From assembly GCA_964373715.1 (NCBI GenBank), contig CAYJVR010000004.1, forward strand, positions 89,255-153,254: a DNA stretch of 64,000 bases, given 5' to 3'. The notes under the pieces are model-generated. The model saw only the letters and a list, made by a program, of their open reading frames with translations, had not been told where the DNA came from and ran no database searches. How positions within the stretch are numbered: the stretch's first letter is position 1; each line of letters begins with the position of its first letter. The translations under genes were made by a program, and so were the position numbers. Of this stretch, positions 3,056 through 48,696 are shown piece by piece. This DNA is from an uncultured Planctomycetia bacterium (GTDB lineage Bacteria; Omnitrophota; Gorgyraeia; 1-14-0-20-64-10).

Positions 3056-3961
3056 TTATACCCTGGCCCTGACCCGAGCCTCTTCCAGAACCCGGGCAAG
3101 GGTTTCGCCGATAGAGGAAGGATTCTTGGAGATGGCCACGCCGGCCTTGCTGAGGGCTTGAACCTTGGAAGCATGCGTTCCCTGCCCCTGGGCAATGACG
3201 GCGCCTGCATGGCCCATTCTCTTTTCGGGCGGAGCGGTGGCCCCTGAGATAAAAGCAGCCACCGGTTTGGTGACAGACTCCTTAATATAAGCCGCTGCTT
3301 CTTCTTCAGAGGAACCGCCGATTTCACCGATCATCACAATCGCCTGCGTGTCGGGGTCAGCTTGAAACCTCTTGAGGATATCCACAAACCCGGAGCCGGG
3401 AACCGAGTCTCCCCCGATCCCGACGCAAGTGGACTGCCCTAACCCGAGGTTCGTCAGCTGCCATACCGCCTCGTAGGTGAGCGTCCCGGAACGTGAAACA
3501 AGGCCGATCGAGCCCGGCCGGTGGATGTAGCCTGGCATAATGCCGATCTTGCACTGTCCCGGCGTGATCACGCCGGGACAGTTCGGCCCGATGATAACGG
3601 GCCTGGTTTTCTGCTCGATCGAAGAGAGGAATCTCTTGACCTTGACCATATCGAGCGCCGGGATCCCCTCGGTGATCACGACGATGAGCGGTATCCGGGA
3701 ATCCACCGCCTCGTAGATGGCGTCTGCACCGAAGGGAGCCGGCACGAAAACCCCGGTGGCGTTCGCCCCGGTCTTCGACACGGCCTCAGCCACCGTGTCG
3801 AAGATCGGGATCCCCTCCCATTTGGTGCCTCCCCGGCCCGGTGTCACTCCGCCGACAACCTGGGTGCCGTACGCCTTCATCTGCGCGGTGTGGAACAAAC
3901 CTGCTTTTCCGGTGATTCCTTGGACGATAACGCGCGTCGCTTTATCCAGCAGAATGCTCAC
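3056..3961 (-). CDS. sucD: succinyl-CoA synthetase alpha subunit
   Basis: The conserved N-terminus [33 protein letters not shown] and CoA-ligase motifs are present. A GTG start at 3961 is inferred from homology; the ORF-track extension to 4048 is non-homologous. Confidence 0.85.
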
Positions 3962-22516: not shown

Positions 22517-22688
22517 GCGGATTACTGAATTTGATGCGCAGGGAGTACACGGTTCGAAGGCAATCGGAGGCCCGAACGGGCACGGCTCCCGGCAGGGAGA
22601 GTGAGGGCCGACGTTTAGTGCGGCCGGACTCGCAGGGGCCGGCAAACGGCCTGAGAAGCGTGTACTTCCTGCATGCTGCACAAACGTT

Positions 22689-23792
22689 ATGAAAATTCTA
22701 GACCGGTATACGCTGCGGACTTACCTGGCGCCGTTGGCTTGGTGTCTGACAATCTTCATCGGCCTTTACATCGTCATTGACATCCTGGGCCATCTGGATG
22801 AGATCCTGCGCAACCATGTTCCCTTGAAAATCCTCGGCATTTACTACGGAACAATGGCTCCTCTTGTCTTCGTGCAGGTGGCGCCGTTTGCCTGCCTGAT
22901 GGCTACCCTGTACGCGCTCGGAAACCTCAACCGGCACCAGGAGCTCATGGCCATGCGGGCTTCCGGCATCTCCCCCTGGACAATCAGCCGGCCCTTGATC
23001 TGGATAGGCCTCTTGATGTCGGCGGGAGTCCTCCTGGTCAATGAAACGGTCGCCCCTCAGGCAGCCCTGATCACCAGCTCTATTAAGGAAGAGCGGCTGG
23101 AGAAGGCGGCTGATCCCAAAAAACCGCATCGGGTGATCAAAACGATCCAGCACCTGGCGGCCTACGGGCAGGAACAGTCGCTTCTTTACGCGAAGAGCTT
23201 CGACCCGGTCGAAAAAACGTTGAAAGGCATCGTGATCCTTCAACACGGCCCCGACCTGCGCGTCCGGCGGAAGGTCACCGCCGAGTCGGCCGAATGGGTC
23301 AACTCCCGCTGGCGGTTTTTAAACGGCACGATTCTGCAGTTCAACACGGAAGGGGAATCGGTCGGCCGGGCTGTCCCTTTCACGGCGAAGTACATCCGGG
23401 CGGGAGACCGGCCGGAGATCCTGGCGAAGGCCGACTCCGAGGCTTCCTACATGAACAGCCGTGATTTATACCGGTACATCAAACGGCTCACGATCGCCGG
23501 GAAATCCACCTTGAGGAAACTTTGGGTGGACCTGTACGCCAAGCCGGCCACCGCACTTGCCTGTCTGGTCACGACGATGATCGGCATCCCTTTCGCGATC
23601 CAGCCGGTGCGCGGCGGCACAGCGATCGGTTTGAGCCTCGGGCTGGGGGTTGGGCTCGTCTTCTACAGCATGAACGCCATCGCTCTCGCTCTCGGAAAAG
23701 GGGGGGTTCTGCCGCCGCTCGTCGCCGCCTGGTGCACCCACACCCTTTTTATCCTCTTTGCTCTGAACATGACTTGGAAACGCCTCGCTTAA
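22689..23792 (+). CDS. lptG: LPS export ABC permease LptG/LptF family
   Basis: MKILDRYTLRTYLAPLAWCLTIFIGLYIVID has the same family architecture as the preceding gene. Confidence 0.8.
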   Translation: MKILDRYTLRTYLAPLAWCLTIFIGLYIVIDILGHLDEILRNHVPLKILGIYYGTMAPLVFVQVAPFACLMATLYALGNLNRHQELMAMRASGISPWTISRPLIWIGLLMSAGVLLVNETVAPQAALITSSIKEERLEKAADPKKPHRVIKTIQHLAAYGQEQSLLYAKSFDPVEKTLKGIVILQHGPDLRVRRKVTAESAEWVNSRWRFLNGTILQFNTEGESVGRAVPFTAKYIRAGDRPEILAKADSEASYMNSRDLYRYIKRLTIAGKSTLRKLWVDLYAKPATALACLVTTMIGIPFAIQPVRGGTAIGLSLGLGVGLVFYSMNAIALALGKGGVLPPLVAAWCTHTLFILFALNMTWKRLA

Positions 23793-23902
23793 TGCTGAAA
23801 CCCCACCGGCGGCTGGATCACCTAATCTACGTGCTGATCGCCTATTCAATTGTCGCCGGGACAATCCTCTGGTGGATGCTCCGCCAGAAGCCTCCTGATT
23901 AA
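23792..23902 (+). CDS. possible small single-TM membrane protein (36 aa) abutting lptG
   Basis: ATG overlaps the lptG TAA by 1 nt. It encodes MLKPHRRLDHLIYVLIAYSIVAGTILWWMLRQKPPD, a charged N-terminus followed by one TM helix. The evidence is weak. Confidence 0.25.
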   Translation: MLKPHRRLDHLIYVLIAYSIVAGTILWWMLRQKPPD

Positions 23903-24066
23903 GCAGCGTTTGCGGGGCAGCTTCTCAGGCCCGCTCGCGGCCCCAGCGTGGCCGCTCACTGCAACGACGTCCCTCGCTATCCGCCTGGGGCGGACCCGCC
24001 TCAGGCGGGTGCTCGGCTCGCAATGACGCTCAAACCATGCCCTTACCGACAGGACCCCCTGTTGTT

Positions 24067-33953: not shown

Positions 33954-34029
33954 TGGAGCGGGTGAAGGGACTTGAACCCTCGACAGCCTCGTTGGCAACG
34001 AGGCGCTCTACCAACTGAGCTACACCCGC
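33954..34029 (-). tRNA. tRNA-Gly (anticodon GCC), CCA encoded
   Basis: Reverse complement GCGGGTGTAGCTCAGTTGGTAGAGCGCCTCGTTGCCAACGAGGCTGTCGAGGGTTCAAGTCCCTTCACCCGCTCCA. Cloverleaf checked by hand; anticodon loop TTGCCAA. Confidence 0.85.
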
Positions 34030-34080
34030 AACAAACTCCTCAAAATCTAAAACAGCACTCTTGGATCTACAACCGGCTCT

Positions 34081-34162
34081 TGGGCACGGAGGGAGTTGAA
34101 CCCCCACCCCTTTCGGGACAGGATCCTAAATCCTGCGCGTCTTCCAGTTCCGCCACGTGCCC
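34081..34162 (-). tRNA. tRNA-Leu (anticodon TAG), long variable arm
   Basis: Reverse complement GGGCACGTGGCGGAACTGGAAGACGCGCAGGATTTAGGATCCTGTCCCGAAAGGGGTGGGGGTTCAACTCCCTCCGTGCCCA. Anticodon stem CAGGA/TCCTG, loop TTTAGGA, discriminator A. Confidence 0.8.
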
Positions 34163-34202
34163 GAAAAAGGAAGCCCATTCAAAATCCGGCTCTGAATTTT
34201 TA

Positions 34203-34275
34203 TGGGCCGTGTAGGAATCGAACCTACAACCTTGACATTAAGAGTGTCCTGCTCTGCCGATTGAGCTAACGGCCC
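34203..34275 (-). tRNA. tRNA-Lys (anticodon CTT)
   Basis: Reverse complement GGGCCGTTAGCTCAATCGGCAGAGCAGGACACTCTTAATGTCAAGGTTGTAGGTTCGATTCCTACACGGCCCA. Anticodon loop CTCTTAA; one mismatch at the top of the anticodon stem. Confidence 0.7.
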
Positions 34276-34410
34276 GAAACCTTCAAGGAATTTGGCCTAG
34301 GCCGGCCAAAAGACTATTTTAGCCTACAGACAGACCCATATAAACGGTTTTAAGGCCCTGTCCCCGTACCTCCTGAACTCGACTTCACAGCAGGCATAAC
34401 CGTGAAAAAA

Positions 34411-34484
34411 CGCGCCCGCCGAGAGTCGAACTCGGAACCTCCAGGTTCGAAGCCTGTCACTCTATCCAGTTGAGCTACGGGCGC
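34411..34484 (-). tRNA. tRNA-Arg (anticodon TCG)
   Basis: Reverse complement GCGCCCGTAGCTCAACTGGATAGAGTGACAGGCTTCGAACCTGGAGGTTCCGAGTTCGACTCTCGGCGGGCGCG. Anticodon loop CTTCGAA. Confidence 0.8.
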
Positions 34485-34560
34485 AAAAAGACACTCTCGA
34501 CGAAGGTAGGCTCTCCAAGATAACAGATCGCTGGGGGGAAATCAAACCGAAGAAACGGTT

Positions 34561-36426: not shown

Positions 36427-37239
36427 CTAGTCCTGCGCAAGCCGCCCCAAACGACCCTGCATGCGCGCCCGACGAAAGATCCAGACGAAAAACAAAATCC
36501 CCAGAAGGAAATAAAAGAGAGTTAAGCCAAAAATCGCAGGCCACATGGATAGAGAAAGGGACTGCCCTCTTAAAGAGGCGCGCAGACCCTCAAAAATATA
36601 GGTGGTCGGCAGACACCGGGAGACTGCCTGCGCCCAAGCCGGCAAAACATCCACCGGATAAAAAACACAGCTGAACGGCTGTATGAGAAACGGTATCCCC
36701 CAGATCAGAGCCTCCGCCGCGTACCCGAAACGCAGCAGCAGCCCGCCGGTAAAAAGACCGATCGCCCAACCGAAAAAAAGCAGCAAGGCGGCCAACGGGA
36801 GAAAAATCCATCCGATCCGGATGATCTCAAAAGCGTAAAGGAAATAAGCGATGCAGGATAAAACGCAGGTCACCACCGTCACTTTGATCAGCCCGTAGAG
36901 GAAAACGGCGGTGATCCACTCCCAAAGCCTCAACGGGCTCAACAGGATGTTCGTCACGTTGCGCGTCCAAACCTCCTCCATTAAGGAAAGGGTCAACGCC
37001 TGCTGGCTTCGGTAATGGATGTCCCATGAGATCATCGCCCCAACGAGAAAGACTATAAATTGGATGATGGGGCCGTTGGCCGCTTTCTGGATATACAAGG
37101 CCACAAACCCCCAGATCAGCAGATCCATCACCGGCCAGAAAAAGACCTCAAAAAGCCGGACCAGGCTGCGCCGGTGAAGGATCAGATAGCGGAAAAAGAT
37201 CGCCCGGATCCGTCTCAGAGAAGAGGCTTCAGGAAACAT
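36427..37239 (-). CDS. ABC-2 type transporter permease
   Basis: Six predicted TM helices; immediately downstream of and overlapping the ATPase gene. Confidence 0.7.
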   Translation of the reverse strand: MFPEASSLRRIRAIFFRYLILHRRSLVRLFEVFFWPVMDLLIWGFVALYIQKAANGPIIQFIVFLVGAMISWDIHYRSQQALTLSLMEEVWTRNVTNILLSPLRLWEWITAVFLYGLIKVTVVTCVLSCIAYFLYAFEIIRIGWIFLPLAALLLFFGWAIGLFTGGLLLRFGYAAEALIWGIPFLIQPFSCVFYPVDVLPAWAQAVSRCLPTTYIFEGLRASLRGQSLSLSMWPAIFGLTLFYFLLGILFFVWIFRRARMQGRLGRLAQD

Positions 37240-41193: not shown

Positions 41194-41223
41194 GCCGCAG
41201 CCTTTTCGGCTGCGGCCCTTGAC
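41194..41223 (-). terminator. rho-independent terminator downstream of the intron-containing tRNA (minus strand); a possible bidirectional hairpin
   Basis: The perfect 11-bp stem GGGCCGCAGCC-ttttc-GGCTGCGGCCC lies directly 3' of the tRNA on the minus strand, followed there by CTTGTTTTTCC. Confidence 0.5.
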
Positions 41224-41225
41224 GT

Positions 41226-41525
41226 TGGTCGCGGGGCCTGGATTTGAACCAGGGACCTTCAGGTTATGCGTACCACTTCAGCTTTCGCTGCTTCATGCTC
41301 CAGCATGAATTTGTGGTCTGGACTATCCCATCACCCCGTACCTAGTGGTACGGGGTGCCCGCCGTCTAGTCTCTACACCTTCCTTGCGCTCAAAACCACA
41401 AGGCTTGGTTCGGGATCACCAGTAAAGGCTTCCCCGACTTTGACGGGTTTTAACTCAACCGTTGCCGGCTGAGTGGCCCAGATTTTATTTGAGCCTGACG
41501 AGCTACCAGACTGCTCCACCCCGCA
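41226..41525 (-). tRNA. tRNA-Met/Ile2 (anticodon CAT) interrupted by a group I intron; exons ~41492..41525 and 41226..41268
   Basis: 5' exon (rc) TGCGGGGTGGAGCAGTCTGGTAGCTCGTCAGGCT carries the acceptor, D-arm and 5' anticodon stem. 3' exon CATAACCTGAAGGTCCCTGGTTCAAATCCAGGCCCCGCGACCA carries the anticodon, 3' anticodon stem CCTGA, T-arm and acceptor. Joined, the anticodon loop is CTCATAA. The anticodon stem is TCAGG/CCTGA, so it is not an initiator tRNA. Confidence 0.7.
41269..41491 (-). ncRNA. group I self-splicing intron (Azoarcus-like, IC3-type) in the anticodon loop of tRNA(CAT)
   Basis: The intron RNA contains GGAAGGUGUAGAGACUAGACGGCGGGCACC (R element / P7 5' strand, near-identical to the Azoarcus ribozyme GAAGGUGUAGAGACUAGACGGCACCCACC) and GGGAUAGUCCAGACC (S element / P7 3' strand). 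The 5' exon ends in U, a GGCC internal guide sequence 11 nt into the intron pairs with exon GGCU, and the terminal intron nucleotide is G. Confidence 0.7.
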
Positions 41526-41590
41526 ATAGATTTTCAAAGATACTGGAAGCTATTATAGCCCCTTTAAGAGACAAGGGCAAACCTTCTTAT

Positions 41591-46220: not shown

Positions 46221-46940
46221 ATGCCTTCTTTAAAAGAACCTGTGCTGATCTGCTGGAGCGGAGGCAAAGACAGCTCTCTCGCTCTGCAGGCGGTTTTAAG
46301 CGACCCCGCCTTCCACGTACAGTCCCTGTTGACCACCGTGACGGAGGGTTACGACCGGATCAGCATGCACGGCGTCCGCAGGACCCTGCTGCTGGAGCAG
46401 GCCGAAGCGGTCGGCCTTCCGCTGGAAGAGGTGAAGATCCCGAACGCCTGCGTCAATGAAACGTACGAAGAGGCCATGCGCCGCGTGCTGAGCCATTACC
46501 GGCAGGAGGGGGTAAGACGGGTCGTGTTCGGTGACCTCTTCCTCGAAGAGATACGGGCTTACCGGCAGAAAAACCTGGCCCGTATCGGCATGGAAGGTCT
46601 CTATCCTCTGTGGGGGCTGGACACCCGCCGGCTGGCGGAGAAATTCATCGCCTCCGGATTCAAGGCGGTCCTTGTCTGCGTGGACCCAAAACAAATCTCC
46701 CCGGAGTTCTGCGGCAGAGAATTCGATGCTTCGCTCCTGCGCGATCTGCCGCCGAGCGCAGACCCGTGCGGGGAAAATGGGGAGTTTCACACCTTCGTGT
46801 ACGAAGGACCGATATTCAAGCGACCGATCCCGATCCAGCGCGGCGAGATTGTGGAACGGGAGGGTTTCTGGTTCTGCGACTTGCTGCCCATCTCTAAAAT
46901 AATTGAGCCGGCACGGGGAACCCGTACCGGCTCAATCTAA
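46221..46940 (+). CDS. Dph6-related ATP pyrophosphatase (MJ0570-like PP-loop, adenine nucleotide alpha-hydrolase fold)
   Basis: VLICWSGGKDSSLAL is a PP-loop SGGKDS motif. Confidence 0.7.
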   Translation: MPSLKEPVLICWSGGKDSSLALQAVLSDPAFHVQSLLTTVTEGYDRISMHGVRRTLLLEQAEAVGLPLEEVKIPNACVNETYEEAMRRVLSHYRQEGVRRVVFGDLFLEEIRAYRQKNLARIGMEGLYPLWGLDTRRLAEKFIASGFKAVLVCVDPKQISPEFCGREFDASLLRDLPPSADPCGENGEFHTFVYEGPIFKRPIPIQRGEIVEREGFWFCDLLPISKIIEPARGTRTGSI

Positions 46941-46972: not shown

Positions 46973-47578
46973 TTAGGCAGCCCGCCTACGCGAACGAAGA
47001 CCGAATCCGGCCAAACCCACTCCCATCAAAAGCATGGAGGCTGGCTCGGGAATAACGCCATTACCGCCGCCCTGCTGGTTGACGGTGTAGTTGCCGGAAA
47101 GGGTCGACTGATAAAGGCGAAACTCGTCGTTGCCGGCCGTGCTCTCTTCAACGCCCGCATTGAAAATCCCATCCGTCTGCAAAGCAGCCAGAGCAGCGGG
47201 AGTCAGGTTAAAATCGGTCGTTGTTATGGTGCTGCCAACGTTGGCTAAACTTCCAAGGGCATTTCCGTCTCCGGAGACATTCCACGTCTCGTTGCTAGTA
47301 TTCACATCCTTATAGGAAATCGTCAGCTTGGCATCAGAAATGGTGATGTTCCCGATCAAGTTCGGAGCAATCTCGGCAAGAATGTCATGAATCCAACTCT
47401 CATCTGGATTACTAGCGCCATCCTTTATCTTATCACTCCCAGTATTTCCAGGGCCGAGAACATTAAACGAATCCCACAAATCAACGAAATCGCTGAAAAC
47501 GATGGCCTGCGCTGGCTGAGGAACCACAAACAGCATCCCCCCAAAAACTAGCACGAATCCAATCAGCTTCTTCATCAA
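46973..47578 (-). CDS. PEP-CTERM sorting-domain secreted protein (exosortase substrate)
   Basis: N-terminal signal MMKKLIGFVLVFGGMLFVVPQPAQA; C-terminal VIPEPASMLLMGVGLAGFGLRSRRRAA is the PEP motif + TM helix + Arg cluster. Confidence 0.7.
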   Translation of the reverse strand: MMKKLIGFVLVFGGMLFVVPQPAQAIVFSDFVDLWDSFNVLGPGNTGSDKIKDGASNPDESWIHDILAEIAPNLIGNITISDAKLTISYKDVNTSNETWNVSGDGNALGSLANVGSTITTTDFNLTPAALAALQTDGIFNAGVEESTAGNDEFRLYQSTLSGNYTVNQQGGGNGVIPEPASMLLMGVGLAGFGLRSRRRAA

Positions 47579-47818
47579 GACCAGCCTCCTATAACCTAAA
47601 TTTCTAGTTACTTCTAATCAAAACCCAAGATAAAAACAGTACAGCATCTCTATATAAAGCATGTTTCATGCCTAACAAAGACACCCTCTCTCCTATAGCT
47701 AAAATTAAGCAGATTTCATTTTTTCTCTCTTAAAAAGGGGTATAACTGGAACTCTTCGATGAGGAAAGCTACAGTTTTGTCGAAAAAATCAGACTATTCA
47801 GGCGAGGTAGGGGTAGGT

Positions 47819-48130
47819 AGTGGCCTAGTTTGCCCCGCCTCGGGGAACTCCGGCGATGCACCGCTCGGAACGTCCCGGCGAGCCGTTCCTCGCTCCGGCA
47901 CTCGGCTGGCTCGTCCCCCGCGGGAGAGTTTGTCTGCAGGGACGTCGGACGACGCGAGCGGGCACGGTTCCCTTCAGGGAGAGCGAGCGAGTCCGTCGAG
48001 CGCAGTCCGGCACGCCGGGCCGAACAAGCGACCCGAAGACAGGCTCTCCCGGCGGGGGACACCTTGCCCGCTGCGCCTCATGACGGTGCCCTGCCGGAGT
48101 TCCCCTTGTGGGGTTTTAAACTAGGCCACT
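47819..48130. repeat. GC-rich (~70%) imperfect-palindromic element bounded by 13-bp perfect inverted repeats (AGTGGCCTAGTTT / AAACTAGGCCACT); MITE-like or structured RNA
   Basis: Terminal IRs at 47819-47831 and 48118-48130. A second matching inverted block GGGGAACTCCGG / CCGGAGTTCCCC lies just inside them, and a third pair is GTCCCCCGCGGGAGAG / CTCTCCCGGCGGGGGAC. ORFs on both strands here are GC-artefacts. Located in the 5' region of the CBS-domain gene. Confidence 0.4.
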
Positions 48131-48218
48131 GCCTAAAATCAGATTCCCTTCCGAAGAAAGGCCGGAAGGCTTATAATAAAAAGACACGCCGAAAGGCTTG
48201 TCGCGGAGGTTTGCCATC

Positions 48219-48696
48219 AATGGCACGAAAACCGATCAAAGACCTGCTAAAAGAAAACAAGGTAACCGTCGTCTCGCACGCCCAGTGCATCCAAGCGAGC
48301 CCGAACCTCTCGATCGGCCAAACGATCGAGCTCATGCGCAACAACAAGTCCGGGTACGTGCTGCTGGTTGATGGAGGACAAGTGACCGGCATTTTCACGG
48401 AGGTGGATGTCGTCCGCAAGATACTCTGCAGCACCGTGGACTGGAGCAAACCTGTCCGCACCGTGATGACACAAAACCCCTCCGTGTTGACGCAGGCTGA
48501 TTCCGTCGGTACGGCGATTGACCTGATGGGAAAAGAGCGCTTTTACCATATCCCCTTGGTGGATGAAAAGAAAAATCTCGCCGGTATTATCTCAGTCCGT
48601 TCCGTGATCAAATTCCTGGCAGAGTTCTATCCGACCGAGGTGTACAATTTACCCCCTGACCCGCATCAGGTGATGAACACGCAAGAAGGGGGCTAG
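48219..48696 (+). CDS. CBS-domain pair protein
   Basis: Start trimmed to the ATG at 48219 (MARKPIKDLLKENKVTVV...). Two CBS motifs (GYVLLVDGGQVTGIFTEVDVVRKI; YHIPLVDEKKNLAGIISVRSVIKF). The ORF-track N-terminal extension covers the palindromic element and is rejected. Confidence 0.6.

What the first reader, a model, noticed from the sequence alone, without database searches (positions are those of the whole stretch)
47819..48130. 312-bp GC-rich imperfect palindrome with 13-bp perfect terminal inverted repeats upstream of the CBS-korAB block
This is the most GC-rich stretch in the window. It is delimited by perfect 13-bp inverted repeats (AGTGGCCTAGTTT ... AAACTAGGCCACT), with a second matching inverted block (GGGGAACTCCGG / CCGGAGTTCCCC) 10-12 nt further in and a third pair (GTCCCCCGCGGGAGAG / CTCTCCCGGCGGGGGAC) deeper still. 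The two arms differ in length between the conserved blocks. The element sits between a PEP-CTERM gene promoter and the start of a CBS-domain gene, making an apparent but non-homologous N-terminal extension of that ORF. Candidate explanations are a MITE-like non-autonomous transposable element (no obvious target-site duplication), a large structured cis-regulatory or non-coding RNA closed by a 25-bp interrupted P1 helix, or a cruciform-forming recombination site.
Basis: seen in the sequence. Interest (0 to 1): 0.55.

Follow-up and report, generated by a model that had tools for sequence, protein, structure and literature searches.

The report
Dispersed GC-rich structured hairpin element
The 312-bp GC-rich palindrome is real and non-coding, and is the largest copy of a small, apparently undescribed family of hairpin-closed structured elements scattered through Omnitrophota-type genomes. 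It is most likely a structured RNA (or selfish hairpin DNA), not part of the neighbouring CBS gene or its leader.

Summary
Window 47814-48135 ("E1") is the most GC-rich stretch (0.69-0.71 against 0.565). It carries the three inverted blocks as described and folds far better than shuffles (RNA z = -9.3).

It is not an N-terminal extension. The CBS gene starts at ATG 48220, as in its 158-aa homologues. It is probably not the CBS-kor leader either: a TATAAT box found upstream of CBS in three relatives lies downstream of E1 (48172-48177).

E1 is not unique. Its apex (47940-48040) is a roughly 100-nt core shared with two more elements in the window: E2 (22538-22675, +) and a diverged E3 (23907-24031, -). 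The core is also shared with elements in three other MAGs, one of them named Omnitrophica. The core is two hairpin arms. One holds GA-GC-GGGCACGGY-hairpin-GA-GC-GA; the second arm is variable. Each copy is closed by a stem that differs completely in sequence and length from the others. Helices covary, and five of six copies fold better on the core strand.

Related genomes lack the elements at the same sites, flanking genes are unrelated, and orientation is mixed. Nothing in Rfam 15 matches. The termini are not conserved between copies and I found no target duplication, so E1 is not a classical MITE.

Best reading: an undescribed, dispersed family of structured RNA-like elements. Whether it acts as RNA or as single-stranded DNA is unresolved.

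The parts
47814..48135 (+). E1: the whole GC-rich hairpin-closed element (322 nt including the extended inverted repeat)
   Evidence: highest GC in the window; RNA fold -200 kcal/mol, z -9.3
47814..47831 (+). Outer closing helix, left arm (TAGGTAGTGGCCTAGTTT). The 13-nt perfect part is 47819-47831.
48118..48135 (+). Outer closing helix, right arm (AAACTAGGCCACTGCCTA)
47842..47863 (+). Second helix block, left arm (GGGGAACTCCGG...)
48084..48105 (+). Second helix block, right arm (...CCGGAGTTCCCC)
47877..47894 (+). Extra side hairpin (GGCGAG-CCGTTC-CTCGCT), present only in the longer left arm
   Evidence: minimum-energy fold
47913..47928 (+). Third (inner) closing helix, left arm (GTCCCCCGCGGGAGAG). 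It encloses the part equivalent to the short family members.
48044..48060 (+). Third (inner) closing helix, right arm (CTCTCCCGGCGGGGGAC)
47940..48040 (+). Conserved family core: the conserved hairpin arm P2 plus the variable hairpin arm P3
   Evidence: Covariance model R2 scores 95.9 bits, E 1e-23; alignments
47948..47995 (+). P2 module: stem - GA - GC - loop GGGCACGGU - hairpin UCCC/GGGA - GA - GC - GA - stem. The exact shared 24-mer is 47960-47983.
   Evidence: (model R1, 63.9 bits)
48007..48022 (+). P3 hairpin CCGGCACGCCGGGCCG, identical over 16 nt to the Omnitrophica element in locus L028
22538..22675 (+). E2: a short (138-nt) family member between lptF and lptG. Core 22558-22658; closing helix GCAGGGAGUACACG / CGUGUACUUCCUGC.
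23907..24031 (-). E3: a diverged family member just downstream of lptG, in the opposite orientation to E2. The GGGCACGG loop is changed and the apical hairpin is changed by compensatory substitutions.
   Evidence: alignment score 46 against shuffles 17.9 +/- 2.7, 0 of 1000; 67.2 bits; E3 is one of the sequences R2 was built from
48172..48177 (+). TATAAT box, the probable -10 of the CBS-kor promoter, downstream of E1. A TATAAT stands upstream of CBS in relatives L005, L006 and L007.
   Evidence: read from the sequences
48205..48222 (+). GGAGG Shine-Dalgarno sequence (48205-48209) and the true CBS start codon ATG (48220-48222)
   Evidence: homologues are 158 aa and start MA.KPIKDL

Best explanation
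E1 is a non-coding element and the largest known copy of a dispersed family that I could not find described. The other copies are E2 and E3 in this window and elements in three other MAGs: one named Omnitrophica and two unclassified.

Every copy has the same plan.
- A conserved, strand-specific core of about 100 nt with two hairpin arms.
- Arm P2: a stem, a tandem GA/GA, a 2-bp step, an asymmetric loop GGGCACGGY, and a UCCC/GGGA hairpin.
- Arm P3: a variable hairpin.
- A closing stem whose sequence and length are free. In E1 it has grown into a rod of roughly 100 bp with one side hairpin.

Most likely the element works as a structured RNA made from the core strand. The conserved loop and GA modules would form a binding platform for a protein or another RNA, held on a stable stem. 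The family turns over in genomes like a selfish or multi-copy small-RNA family.

Shown:
- E1 is non-coding.
- It belongs to a family with a conserved core and non-conserved termini.
- Helices covary.
- Related genomes have empty sites.

Likely, read by eye from four sequences: E1 lies upstream of the CBS-kor promoter and not inside its leader.

Inferred:
- Transcription, and action at the RNA level.
- The binding-platform role.
- The way copies spread.
For: Non-coding:
- The CBS gene has a GGAGG/ATG start at 48220 and 158-aa homologues starting MA.KPIKDL.
- The ORFs across E1 have no Pfam match.
- A six-frame translation of E1 and E2 found no protein among 5.8 billion.

Not the leader:
- TATAAT at 48172-48177 lies after E1, and a TATAAT also stands upstream of CBS in L005, L006 and L007.

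Family:
- The 24-mer GGGCACGGYTCCCNNCAGGGAGAG occurs twice in the window against 0 expected.
- The flanks of the two copies also align.
- A scan of one genome per species (GTDB) found L015 and L012, which are similar well beyond the pattern.
- L028 was found by the covariance model alone (27.8 bits) and shares a further 16-nt P3 hairpin with E1. The E1 and L028 cores align with score 48 against shuffles 19 +/- 3.
- E3 aligns to E2 with score 46 against shuffles 17.9 +/- 2.7, 0 of 1000.
- Model R2 scores its six training members at 67-96 bits (a match by construction) and nothing else above 16 bits in 154 kb.

Structure:
- Each copy for which a closing helix was checked (E2, L015, L012, L028, E3) has its own near-perfect closing helix of about 10-28 bp, on top of E1's own.
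- On the five-sequence alignment, 87% of cells pair against 69% in shuffles and 31-51% when partners are slid.
- 14 of 23 pairs change on both sides.

Strand:
- Five of six copies fold 5-16 kcal/mol better on the core strand.
- E1's fold has 12 G-U pairs against 3 A-C mismatches.

Turnover:
- lptF and lptG overlap or abut in L028, L030 and L031, where this genome has E2.
- The L028 element fills the gap between two divergent -35 boxes that are 18 nt apart in this strain.
- L005 has only 53 nt upstream of CBS.

Flanking genes are unrelated. No Rfam 15 family matches any copy, even at E up to 10.
Against: - Only six members are known, and two (L015, L012) were found with a pattern that fixes part of the core.
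- The consensus structure was predicted on the same small alignment on which pairs were counted.
- There is no transcription evidence, and no shared promoter or terminator in the flanks.
- L015 and L012 are antisense to co-directional neighbours, so any transcript needs its own promoter.
- Strand asymmetry and G-T tolerance would also suit a single-stranded-DNA substrate.
- The core strands of the short copies are G-rich, which alone favours their folding.
- E3 shows no strand preference, and its fold is not better than shuffles.
- Empty sites in related genomes and a GC content above that of the host are classic marks of mobile DNA.
- The promoter assignment rests on TATAAT boxes read by eye; the promoter scan did not list the window's box, and the box in L005 is only about 6 nt from the ATG.
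Confidence: 0.5

Rival explanations
1. A mobile palindromic element acting at the DNA level (MITE/REPIN-like). The conserved, oriented hairpin core would be the recognition site, on one single DNA strand, for a transposase supplied in trans, for example an HUH/Y1 enzyme of the IS200/IS605 or RAYT kind. The closing stems would only stabilise the hairpin, and no RNA function would be needed.
For: - Three sites are occupied in one genome and empty in relatives.
- Orientation relative to neighbours is mixed and flanking genes are unrelated.
- There are three copies in 64 kb, including a diverged one.
- GC content is above that of the host in every genome.
- Copies sit at harmless places: between divergent promoters and between genes.
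- The same lptF-lptG junction holds other hairpin-closed inserts in L025.
- E1's left end reads GTAG, and E1's right arm, E2 and L015 read GCAG at their outer ends, recalling the GTAG tag of REPs (PMC3733652).
Against: - The termini are not conserved between copies, even within one genome.
- No target-site duplication is seen.
- The conserved part is a branched core of about 100 nt with tandem G-A motifs, far larger than the 20-40-nt hairpins of REPs or IS200/IS605 ends (PMC3733652).
- No transposase was looked for genome-wide.
- E1's end sequence was not found in 185,579 species genomes or in the JGI metagenomes.
Confidence: 0.3
2. E1 is a composite: a short E2-like family element (47913-48060) nested inside an unrelated palindromic element (47814-47912 plus 48061-48135). 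This concerns E1's size only and is compatible with either reading above.
For: - The inner closing helix 47913-47928 / 48044-48060 delimits a 148-nt unit, about the size of E2, L015 and L012.
- E1's outer arms show no significant similarity to the outer parts of the other long copy, L028.
- Other hairpin-closed inserts without the core exist in this clade.
Against: - No second copy of the outer arms was found anywhere.
- L028 also has a long form of about 290 nt, so long forms may be a regular variant.
Confidence: 0.25
3. A DNA structure (cruciform) that buffers supercoiling or insulates the two divergent promoters.
For: - E1 and the L028 element both lie between divergently transcribed genes, and the L028 element sits exactly between two -35 boxes.
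- The DNA-parameter fold gives -101.9 kcal/mol, z -6.9.
Against: - E2, E3, L015 and L012 are not between divergent promoters.
- A cruciform does not explain a conserved asymmetric core or the strand bias.
Confidence: 0.07
4. A cis-regulatory leader or riboswitch of the CBS-korAB operon, or a translated N-terminal extension of the CBS protein.
For: - E1 is on the same strand as CBS, and a weak promoter-like site lies about 110 nt upstream of it at 47678-47705.
- The ORF 47830-48696 is open.
Against: - The TATAAT box shared with relatives, the Shine-Dalgarno sequence and the conserved start all lie downstream of E1.
- CBS homologues are 158 aa.
- A relative with 77% CBS identity has only 53 nt upstream.
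- Other family members flank unrelated genes.
- The extension has no Pfam match and no protein homologue.
Confidence: 0.04

Closest known systems
MITEs (miniature inverted-repeat transposable elements, e.g. Correia/NEMIS, RUP, ERIC/IRU)
   Same: Small (about 125-320 nt), non-coding and intergenic. Able to fold into a long hairpin. Several copies per genome in either orientation. Present at a site in one genome and absent from it in related genomes.
   Different: MITE copies share their terminal inverted repeats and have target-site duplications. Here the termini differ completely between copies, the apex is what is conserved, and no duplication is seen.
REP / REPIN elements mobilised by RAYT transposases (PMC3733652)
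   Same: Extragenic palindromes that form larger hairpins, are probably transcribed, and are strand-specific for the enzyme. A GTAG or GCAG tetranucleotide stands at the outer ends of E1, E2 and L015.
   Different: REP units are 20-40 bp, nearly identical within a genome and highly abundant. Here the repeated unit is a branched core of about 100 nt, the stems are private to each copy, and only three copies occur in 64 kb. No RAYT gene was looked for.
Multi-copy trans-encoded small-RNA families that change position between related genomes (for example the 'cuckoo' RNA families of Rhizobiales; recalled from my own knowledge, not checked here)
   Same: Paralogous structured RNAs in unrelated intergenic regions, with conserved hairpin loops, covarying stems and variable synteny.
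   Different: Those families have mapped promoters, terminators and transcripts. None is shown here. Closing stems of up to about 100 bp are unusual for small RNAs.
Retron msr-msd non-coding RNA
   Same: A variable inverted repeat closes a structured RNA that carries a long hairpin of variable length.
   Different: A retron needs an adjacent reverse-transcriptase gene. E1 is followed by CBS-korAB and E2 by lptG.

Membership tests
MITE | Terminal inverted repeats shared by the copies of a family (the transposase binding sites) | tested here: not met
   E1, E2, E3, L015, L012 and L028 have unrelated termini; only the apex aligns
MITE | Target-site duplication flanking the element | tested here: inconclusive
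   No direct repeat abuts the inverted repeats in any copy. A TA at both ends of E1 cannot be told apart from the inverted repeat itself. A 9-nt repeat AAAATCAGA (47785-47793 / 48135-48143) is placed asymmetrically.
MITE | Multiple copies, with presence/absence differences between genomes | tested here: met
   Three copies in the window; empty sites in relatives
MITE | A parent insertion sequence with the same ends in the genome | not testable with these tools
   Only 64 kb of the source genome is available; the genome and metagenome scans with E1's ends found nothing
REP/REPIN | A 20-40-bp stem-loop unit with an unpaired GTAG or CGTC tag, near-identical in many copies (PMC3733652) | tested here: not met
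   The E1 arm motif occurs only in E1. GTAG/GCAG occurs at some ends but inside paired stems of unrelated sequence.
REP/REPIN | An associated RAYT (Y1 transposase) gene | not tested
   The window's genes were not all annotated, and the rest of the genome is not available
Any Rfam 15 RNA family (riboswitches, ribozymes, 6S, group II domain V/VI, omega-RNAs, etc.) | A covariance-model match | tested here: not met
   No hit on E1 at gathering score. Only chance-level miRNA/snoRNA hits at E up to 10 in or beside E1, and none on E2 or on the L015, L012 and L028 elements.
Cis-regulatory leader / riboswitch | Lies between promoter and start codon, in sense orientation, upstream of a recurring gene class | tested here: not met
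   E1 lies upstream of the TATAAT box shared with relatives. Neighbours are unrelated, and two copies are antisense.
Retron ncRNA | A reverse-transcriptase gene immediately downstream | tested here: not met
   Pfam: CBS/POR domains downstream of E1; LptF_LptG downstream of E2
The new family proposed here (E-family) | P2 module (stem, GA, 2-bp step, GGGCACGGY loop, UCCC/GGGA hairpin, GA, 2 bp, GA, stem) plus a P3 hairpin, enclosed by a closing helix | tested here: met
   E1 scores 63.9 bits with model R1 and 95.9 bits with R2, both of which it helped to train. Closing helices are shown.

The most novel reading that the evidence does not exclude
The elements are a new class of structured non-coding RNA in Omnitrophota and allied uncultured bacteria. 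A conserved core of about 100 nt with two hairpin arms would be the active part: a protein or RNA binding platform, or a catalytic or self-propagating RNA. The closing helix would be free to expand up to about 100 bp. The RNA genes would multiply and move within genomes without conserved ends or target duplications, which would imply an unknown way of spreading.
Probability: 0.25. Interest if true: 0.75.

Novelty: new variant of a known kind. Interest (0 to 1): 0.55.

Why it matters
Omnitrophota are uncultured, mostly ultra-small bacteria (PMC10066038), and two full-text searches found no paper on their non-coding RNAs.

A recurrent element that is conserved at its apex but free at its ends does not fit the usual pictures of a MITE, a REP or a riboswitch.
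- If it is an RNA, it is a new structured RNA class with a well-defined, testable 100-nt core.
- If it is DNA, it points to a way of moving that recognises an internal hairpin and not the ends.

In practice:
- The element produces a false 130-codon N-terminal extension of a CBS gene.
- The assemblies examined break at or near it.
- The long L028 element also starts a Logan contig.

Annotators of these genomes therefore need to know about it.

Tried and rejected
Searches that found nothing useful:
- Exact search for E1's end structure (GTGGCCTAGTTT N6-18 GGGGAACTCCGG) in one genome per species and in JGI metagenomes: no hit.
- Relaxed core patterns in metagenome and viral contigs: only chance hits inside high-GC coding DNA, or nothing.
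- Of the nine genome hits, only L015 and L012 extend beyond the pattern. L009-L011, L013, L014, L016 and L017 match only, or barely beyond, the pattern-fixed segment. L011 is the one doubtful case.
- blastn of E1 against plasmids and phages: nothing.
- A concatenated six-frame translation of E1 and E2 used as a protein query, to catch spurious ORFs called on related elements: nothing.
- The DNA of the closest relative's E1 could not be fetched because the sample files were too large.

Similarities tested and found not significant:
- The region upstream of CBS in L006 (81% relative) shares only a 10-mer with E1.
- E1's outer arms against L028's outer arms.

Ideas rejected:
- A possible pairing of the conserved loop with 48061-48072 (pair I8) has no counterpart that I could find by eye in E2 or L015, so it was dropped.
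- Resemblances considered by eye and rejected: a sigma-54 -24 box (no -12 element), integron attC core sites, group II intron domain V, and guanidine-II ACGR loops. For the last two, no Rfam hit appeared either.
- The long-range inverted repeat at 36785/37073 lies inside an ORF and is probably chance.

Full report
**Observation**

- The 13-nt ends AGTGGCCTAGTTT / AAACTAGGCCACT are perfect and occur nowhere else in the window. They extend to 18 nt with one mismatch.
- The second block (GGGGAACTCCGG / CCGGAGTTCCCC) and the third block (GTCCCCCGCGGGAGAG / CTCTCCCGGCGGGGGAC) are present and collinear.
- The arms differ in length: 59 nt against 33 nt between blocks 2 and 3.
- This is the most GC-rich 312-nt stretch: 0.708, with the next peak at 0.673 and a window mean of 0.565.

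One perfect 13-mer inverted repeat within 400 nt is not rare, at about 0.25 expected per window. The whole is far from chance:
- The + strand folds as RNA at -200.3 kcal/mol (z -9.3).
- The - strand folds at -188.8 kcal/mol (z -6.7).
- With DNA parameters the fold is -101.9 kcal/mol (z -6.9).

Three independent Logan contigs reproduce the right arm exactly. A strain more than 90% identical has the same spacer length. The element is therefore not an assembly artefact. I call it E1 (47814-48135).

**Not coding, and probably not the leader**

- Pfam confirms a PEP-CTERM gene at 46973-47578 (-) and CBS-korA-korB-CBS from 48220 (+).
- The CBS gene has GGAGG at 48205-48209 and ATG at 48220.
- Its 108 homologues (E at most 1e-20) are almost all 156-171 aa, and the ones I read begin MA.KPIKDL.
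- The 130-codon "extension" and the other ORFs across E1 have no Pfam match.
- A six-frame translation found no relative among 5.8 billion proteins.
- Names attached to homologues place the organism in Candidatus Omnitrophica/Omnitrophota.
- A TATAAT box stands upstream of CBS in this window (48172-48177) and in relatives L005, L006 and L007. It lies downstream of E1. E1 therefore sits between the divergent promoters, not inside the CBS-kor leader. This rests on reading four sequences by eye; the promoter scan did not list the box.

**E1 is not unique**

A self-comparison of the window gave one unexpected hit, at 22564-22605. That region is the 172-nt spacer between lptF and lptG. It holds a 138-nt hairpin-closed element, E2.
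- E2 shares with the apex of E1 the exact 24-mer GGGCACGGYTCCCNNCAGGGAGAG (2 found, 0 expected). The flanks of the 24-mer are also similar.
- A scan of one genome per species with this pattern returned nine loci.
- Two of them, L015 and L012 (both unclassified MAGs), are similar well beyond the pattern. Each is closed by its own long helix.
- The other seven match only, or barely beyond, the pattern-fixed segment. They lie mostly in high-GC genomes, and the ones I examined sit inside ORFs. I treat them as chance, with L011 doubtful.
- A 48-nt covariance model (R1) then found a further copy without any pattern, in L028 (an Omnitrophica MAG, GCA_023818545.1), at 27.8 bits.
- The L028 copy is a GC-rich element of about 290 nt. 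Its core aligns with E1 (score 48 against shuffles 19 +/- 3) and includes an identical 16-nt hairpin, CCGGCACGCCGGGCCG.
- blastn then revealed E3 (23907-24031, - strand), a diverged copy just beyond lptG. Its alignment to E2 scores 46 against 17.9 +/- 2.7 for shuffles, 0 of 1000.
- A 100-nt model (R2) built from the six copies scores them at 67-96 bits, which is a match by construction. Nothing else in 154 kb scores above 16 bits.

**Anatomy**

All copies share one plan.
- A closing helix that is near-perfect but unrelated in sequence from copy to copy. E2: 14 nt per arm with one bulge. L012: 13 positions with one mismatch. L028 domain B: 18-19 bp. L015: about 28 bp. E3: 10 bp with a bulge. 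E1: an interrupted rod of roughly 100 bp.
- A conserved arm, P2: stem, GA, a 2-bp step (GC/GC, or AC/GU in E2), the loop GGGCACGGY, the hairpin UCCC-N4-GGGA, then GA, 2 bp, GA and the stem.
- A variable hairpin arm, P3.

On the five-sequence alignment, 87% of cells form standard pairs. Shuffles give 69%, and sliding the partners gives 31-51%. Fourteen of 23 pairs change on both sides. In E3 the apical hairpin CUCCC/GGGAG has become CCGCC/GGCGG, two compensatory changes.

Caveats: there are only five or six sequences, the structure was predicted on the same alignment, and two members were found with a pattern that fixes part of the core.

**Strand**

Five of six copies fold 5-16 kcal/mol better on the core strand. 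E1's fold has 12 G-U pairs against 3 A-C mismatches. The tandem G-A motifs make sense on one strand only. This favours a single-stranded nucleic acid of that polarity, either RNA or single-stranded DNA.

**Genomic behaviour**

- Flanking genes are unrelated: PEP-CTERM/CBS-kor, lptF/lptG, a type II secretion ATPase and DUF7544, and an unknown gene and hisG.
- E2 is in sense orientation. L015 and L012 are antisense to co-directional neighbours.
- lptF and lptG overlap or abut in L028, L030 and L031, where this genome has E2.
- In L025 the same junction holds two other hairpin-closed inserts without the core (fold z -6.95).
- The L028 element fills the space between two divergent -35 boxes that are 18 nt apart in this strain.
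- L005 (CBS 77% identical) has only 53 nt upstream of CBS.
- Every copy is more GC-rich than its host locus.
- I see no target duplication, promoter or terminator shared by the flanks.

**Comparison with known kinds**

- No Rfam 15 family matches any copy, even at E up to 10.
- Plasmid and phage collections hold nothing similar.
- Classical MITE membership fails on the defining feature of shared termini.
- REP/REPIN membership fails on unit size, on identity between copies and on abundance (PMC3733652). A GTAG/GCAG at several outer ends is a lead worth testing.
- A riboswitch or leader fails on position, orientation and gene association.
- A retron fails for want of a reverse transcriptase.

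**Conclusion**

E1 is the largest copy of a dispersed family of hairpin-closed structured elements that I could not find described. The family has a conserved, oriented core and free termini.
- I favour a structured RNA whose conserved loop and GA module is a binding platform (confidence 0.5).
- The main rival is a selfish DNA hairpin mobilised in trans through recognition of the internal hairpin (0.3).
- E1's unusual length may come from growth of the closing helix, or from nesting of a short family element inside another palindrome. This is unresolved.
- Transcript mapping and a model-based census of complete genomes would decide between the readings.

Noticed in passing
window 41213-41535 (-): A tRNA gene with anticodon CAU (Met/fMet type) is interrupted in its anticodon loop by a group I intron (Rfam RF00028, 58 bits, 41298-41501). 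ARAGORN did not report this tRNA.
   Followed up: partly
window 33954-34485 (-): A cluster of four tRNA genes (Gly-GCC, Leu-TAG, Lys-CTT, Arg-TCG). A four-tRNA cluster is also present in relative L028 (18638-19212).
   Followed up: no
window 22538-22675 (+) and 23907-24031 (-): E2 and E3 lie in inverted orientation and bracket lptG plus a 36-codon ORF (23792-23902). Relatives L028, L030 and L031 lack E2, and L028 has no spacer after lptG where E3 would lie.
   Followed up: partly
L025:4421-4628: In a relative with 76% LptG identity, the lptF-lptG junction holds two other hairpin-closed inserts (a 14-bp and a roughly 18-bp closing helix; fold z -6.95) without the family core. This site seems to collect such elements.
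   Followed up: partly
L007:831-4689: In another Omnitrophica MAG, the region upstream of CBS carries a helicase (ResIII), an N6/N4 DNA methyltransferase and a large serine recombinase whose product also hits the C-terminal domain of diphthamide synthase. This looks like an island integrated into the gene that lies at 46221-46940 in this window.
   Followed up: no
window 48056-48065; L004 start; L029 start: Three Logan contigs start inside E1. The NCBI contig of a close relative starts 34 nt before CBS. A Logan contig starts inside the long L028 element. E2 assembles without a break. Either the long GC-rich hairpins break short-read assemblies, or extra copies exist.
   Followed up: partly
window 47785-47793 and 48135-48143: A 9-nt direct repeat AAAATCAGA flanks E1 asymmetrically: 20 nt before the left arm, and overlapping the last base of the right arm. 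It could be a remnant of a target duplication, or chance.
   Followed up: no
window 48146-48168: A small hairpin CCTTCCG...CGGAAGG lies between E1 and the TATAAT box, overlapping the expected -35 region. It scores as a terminator-like site on the - strand.
   Followed up: no
window 3553-3582 and 3767-3809: A perfect 30-nt palindrome (ACTGTCCCGGCGTGA / TCACGCCGGGACAGT) and a nearby 17-nt inverted repeat with a 9-nt loop.
   Followed up: no
L005:1260-1285: In this relative the TATAAT box is only about 6 nt from the CBS ATG, which suggests a leaderless mRNA. This window, L006 and L007 have leaders of roughly 35-40 nt with a Shine-Dalgarno sequence.
   Followed up: no
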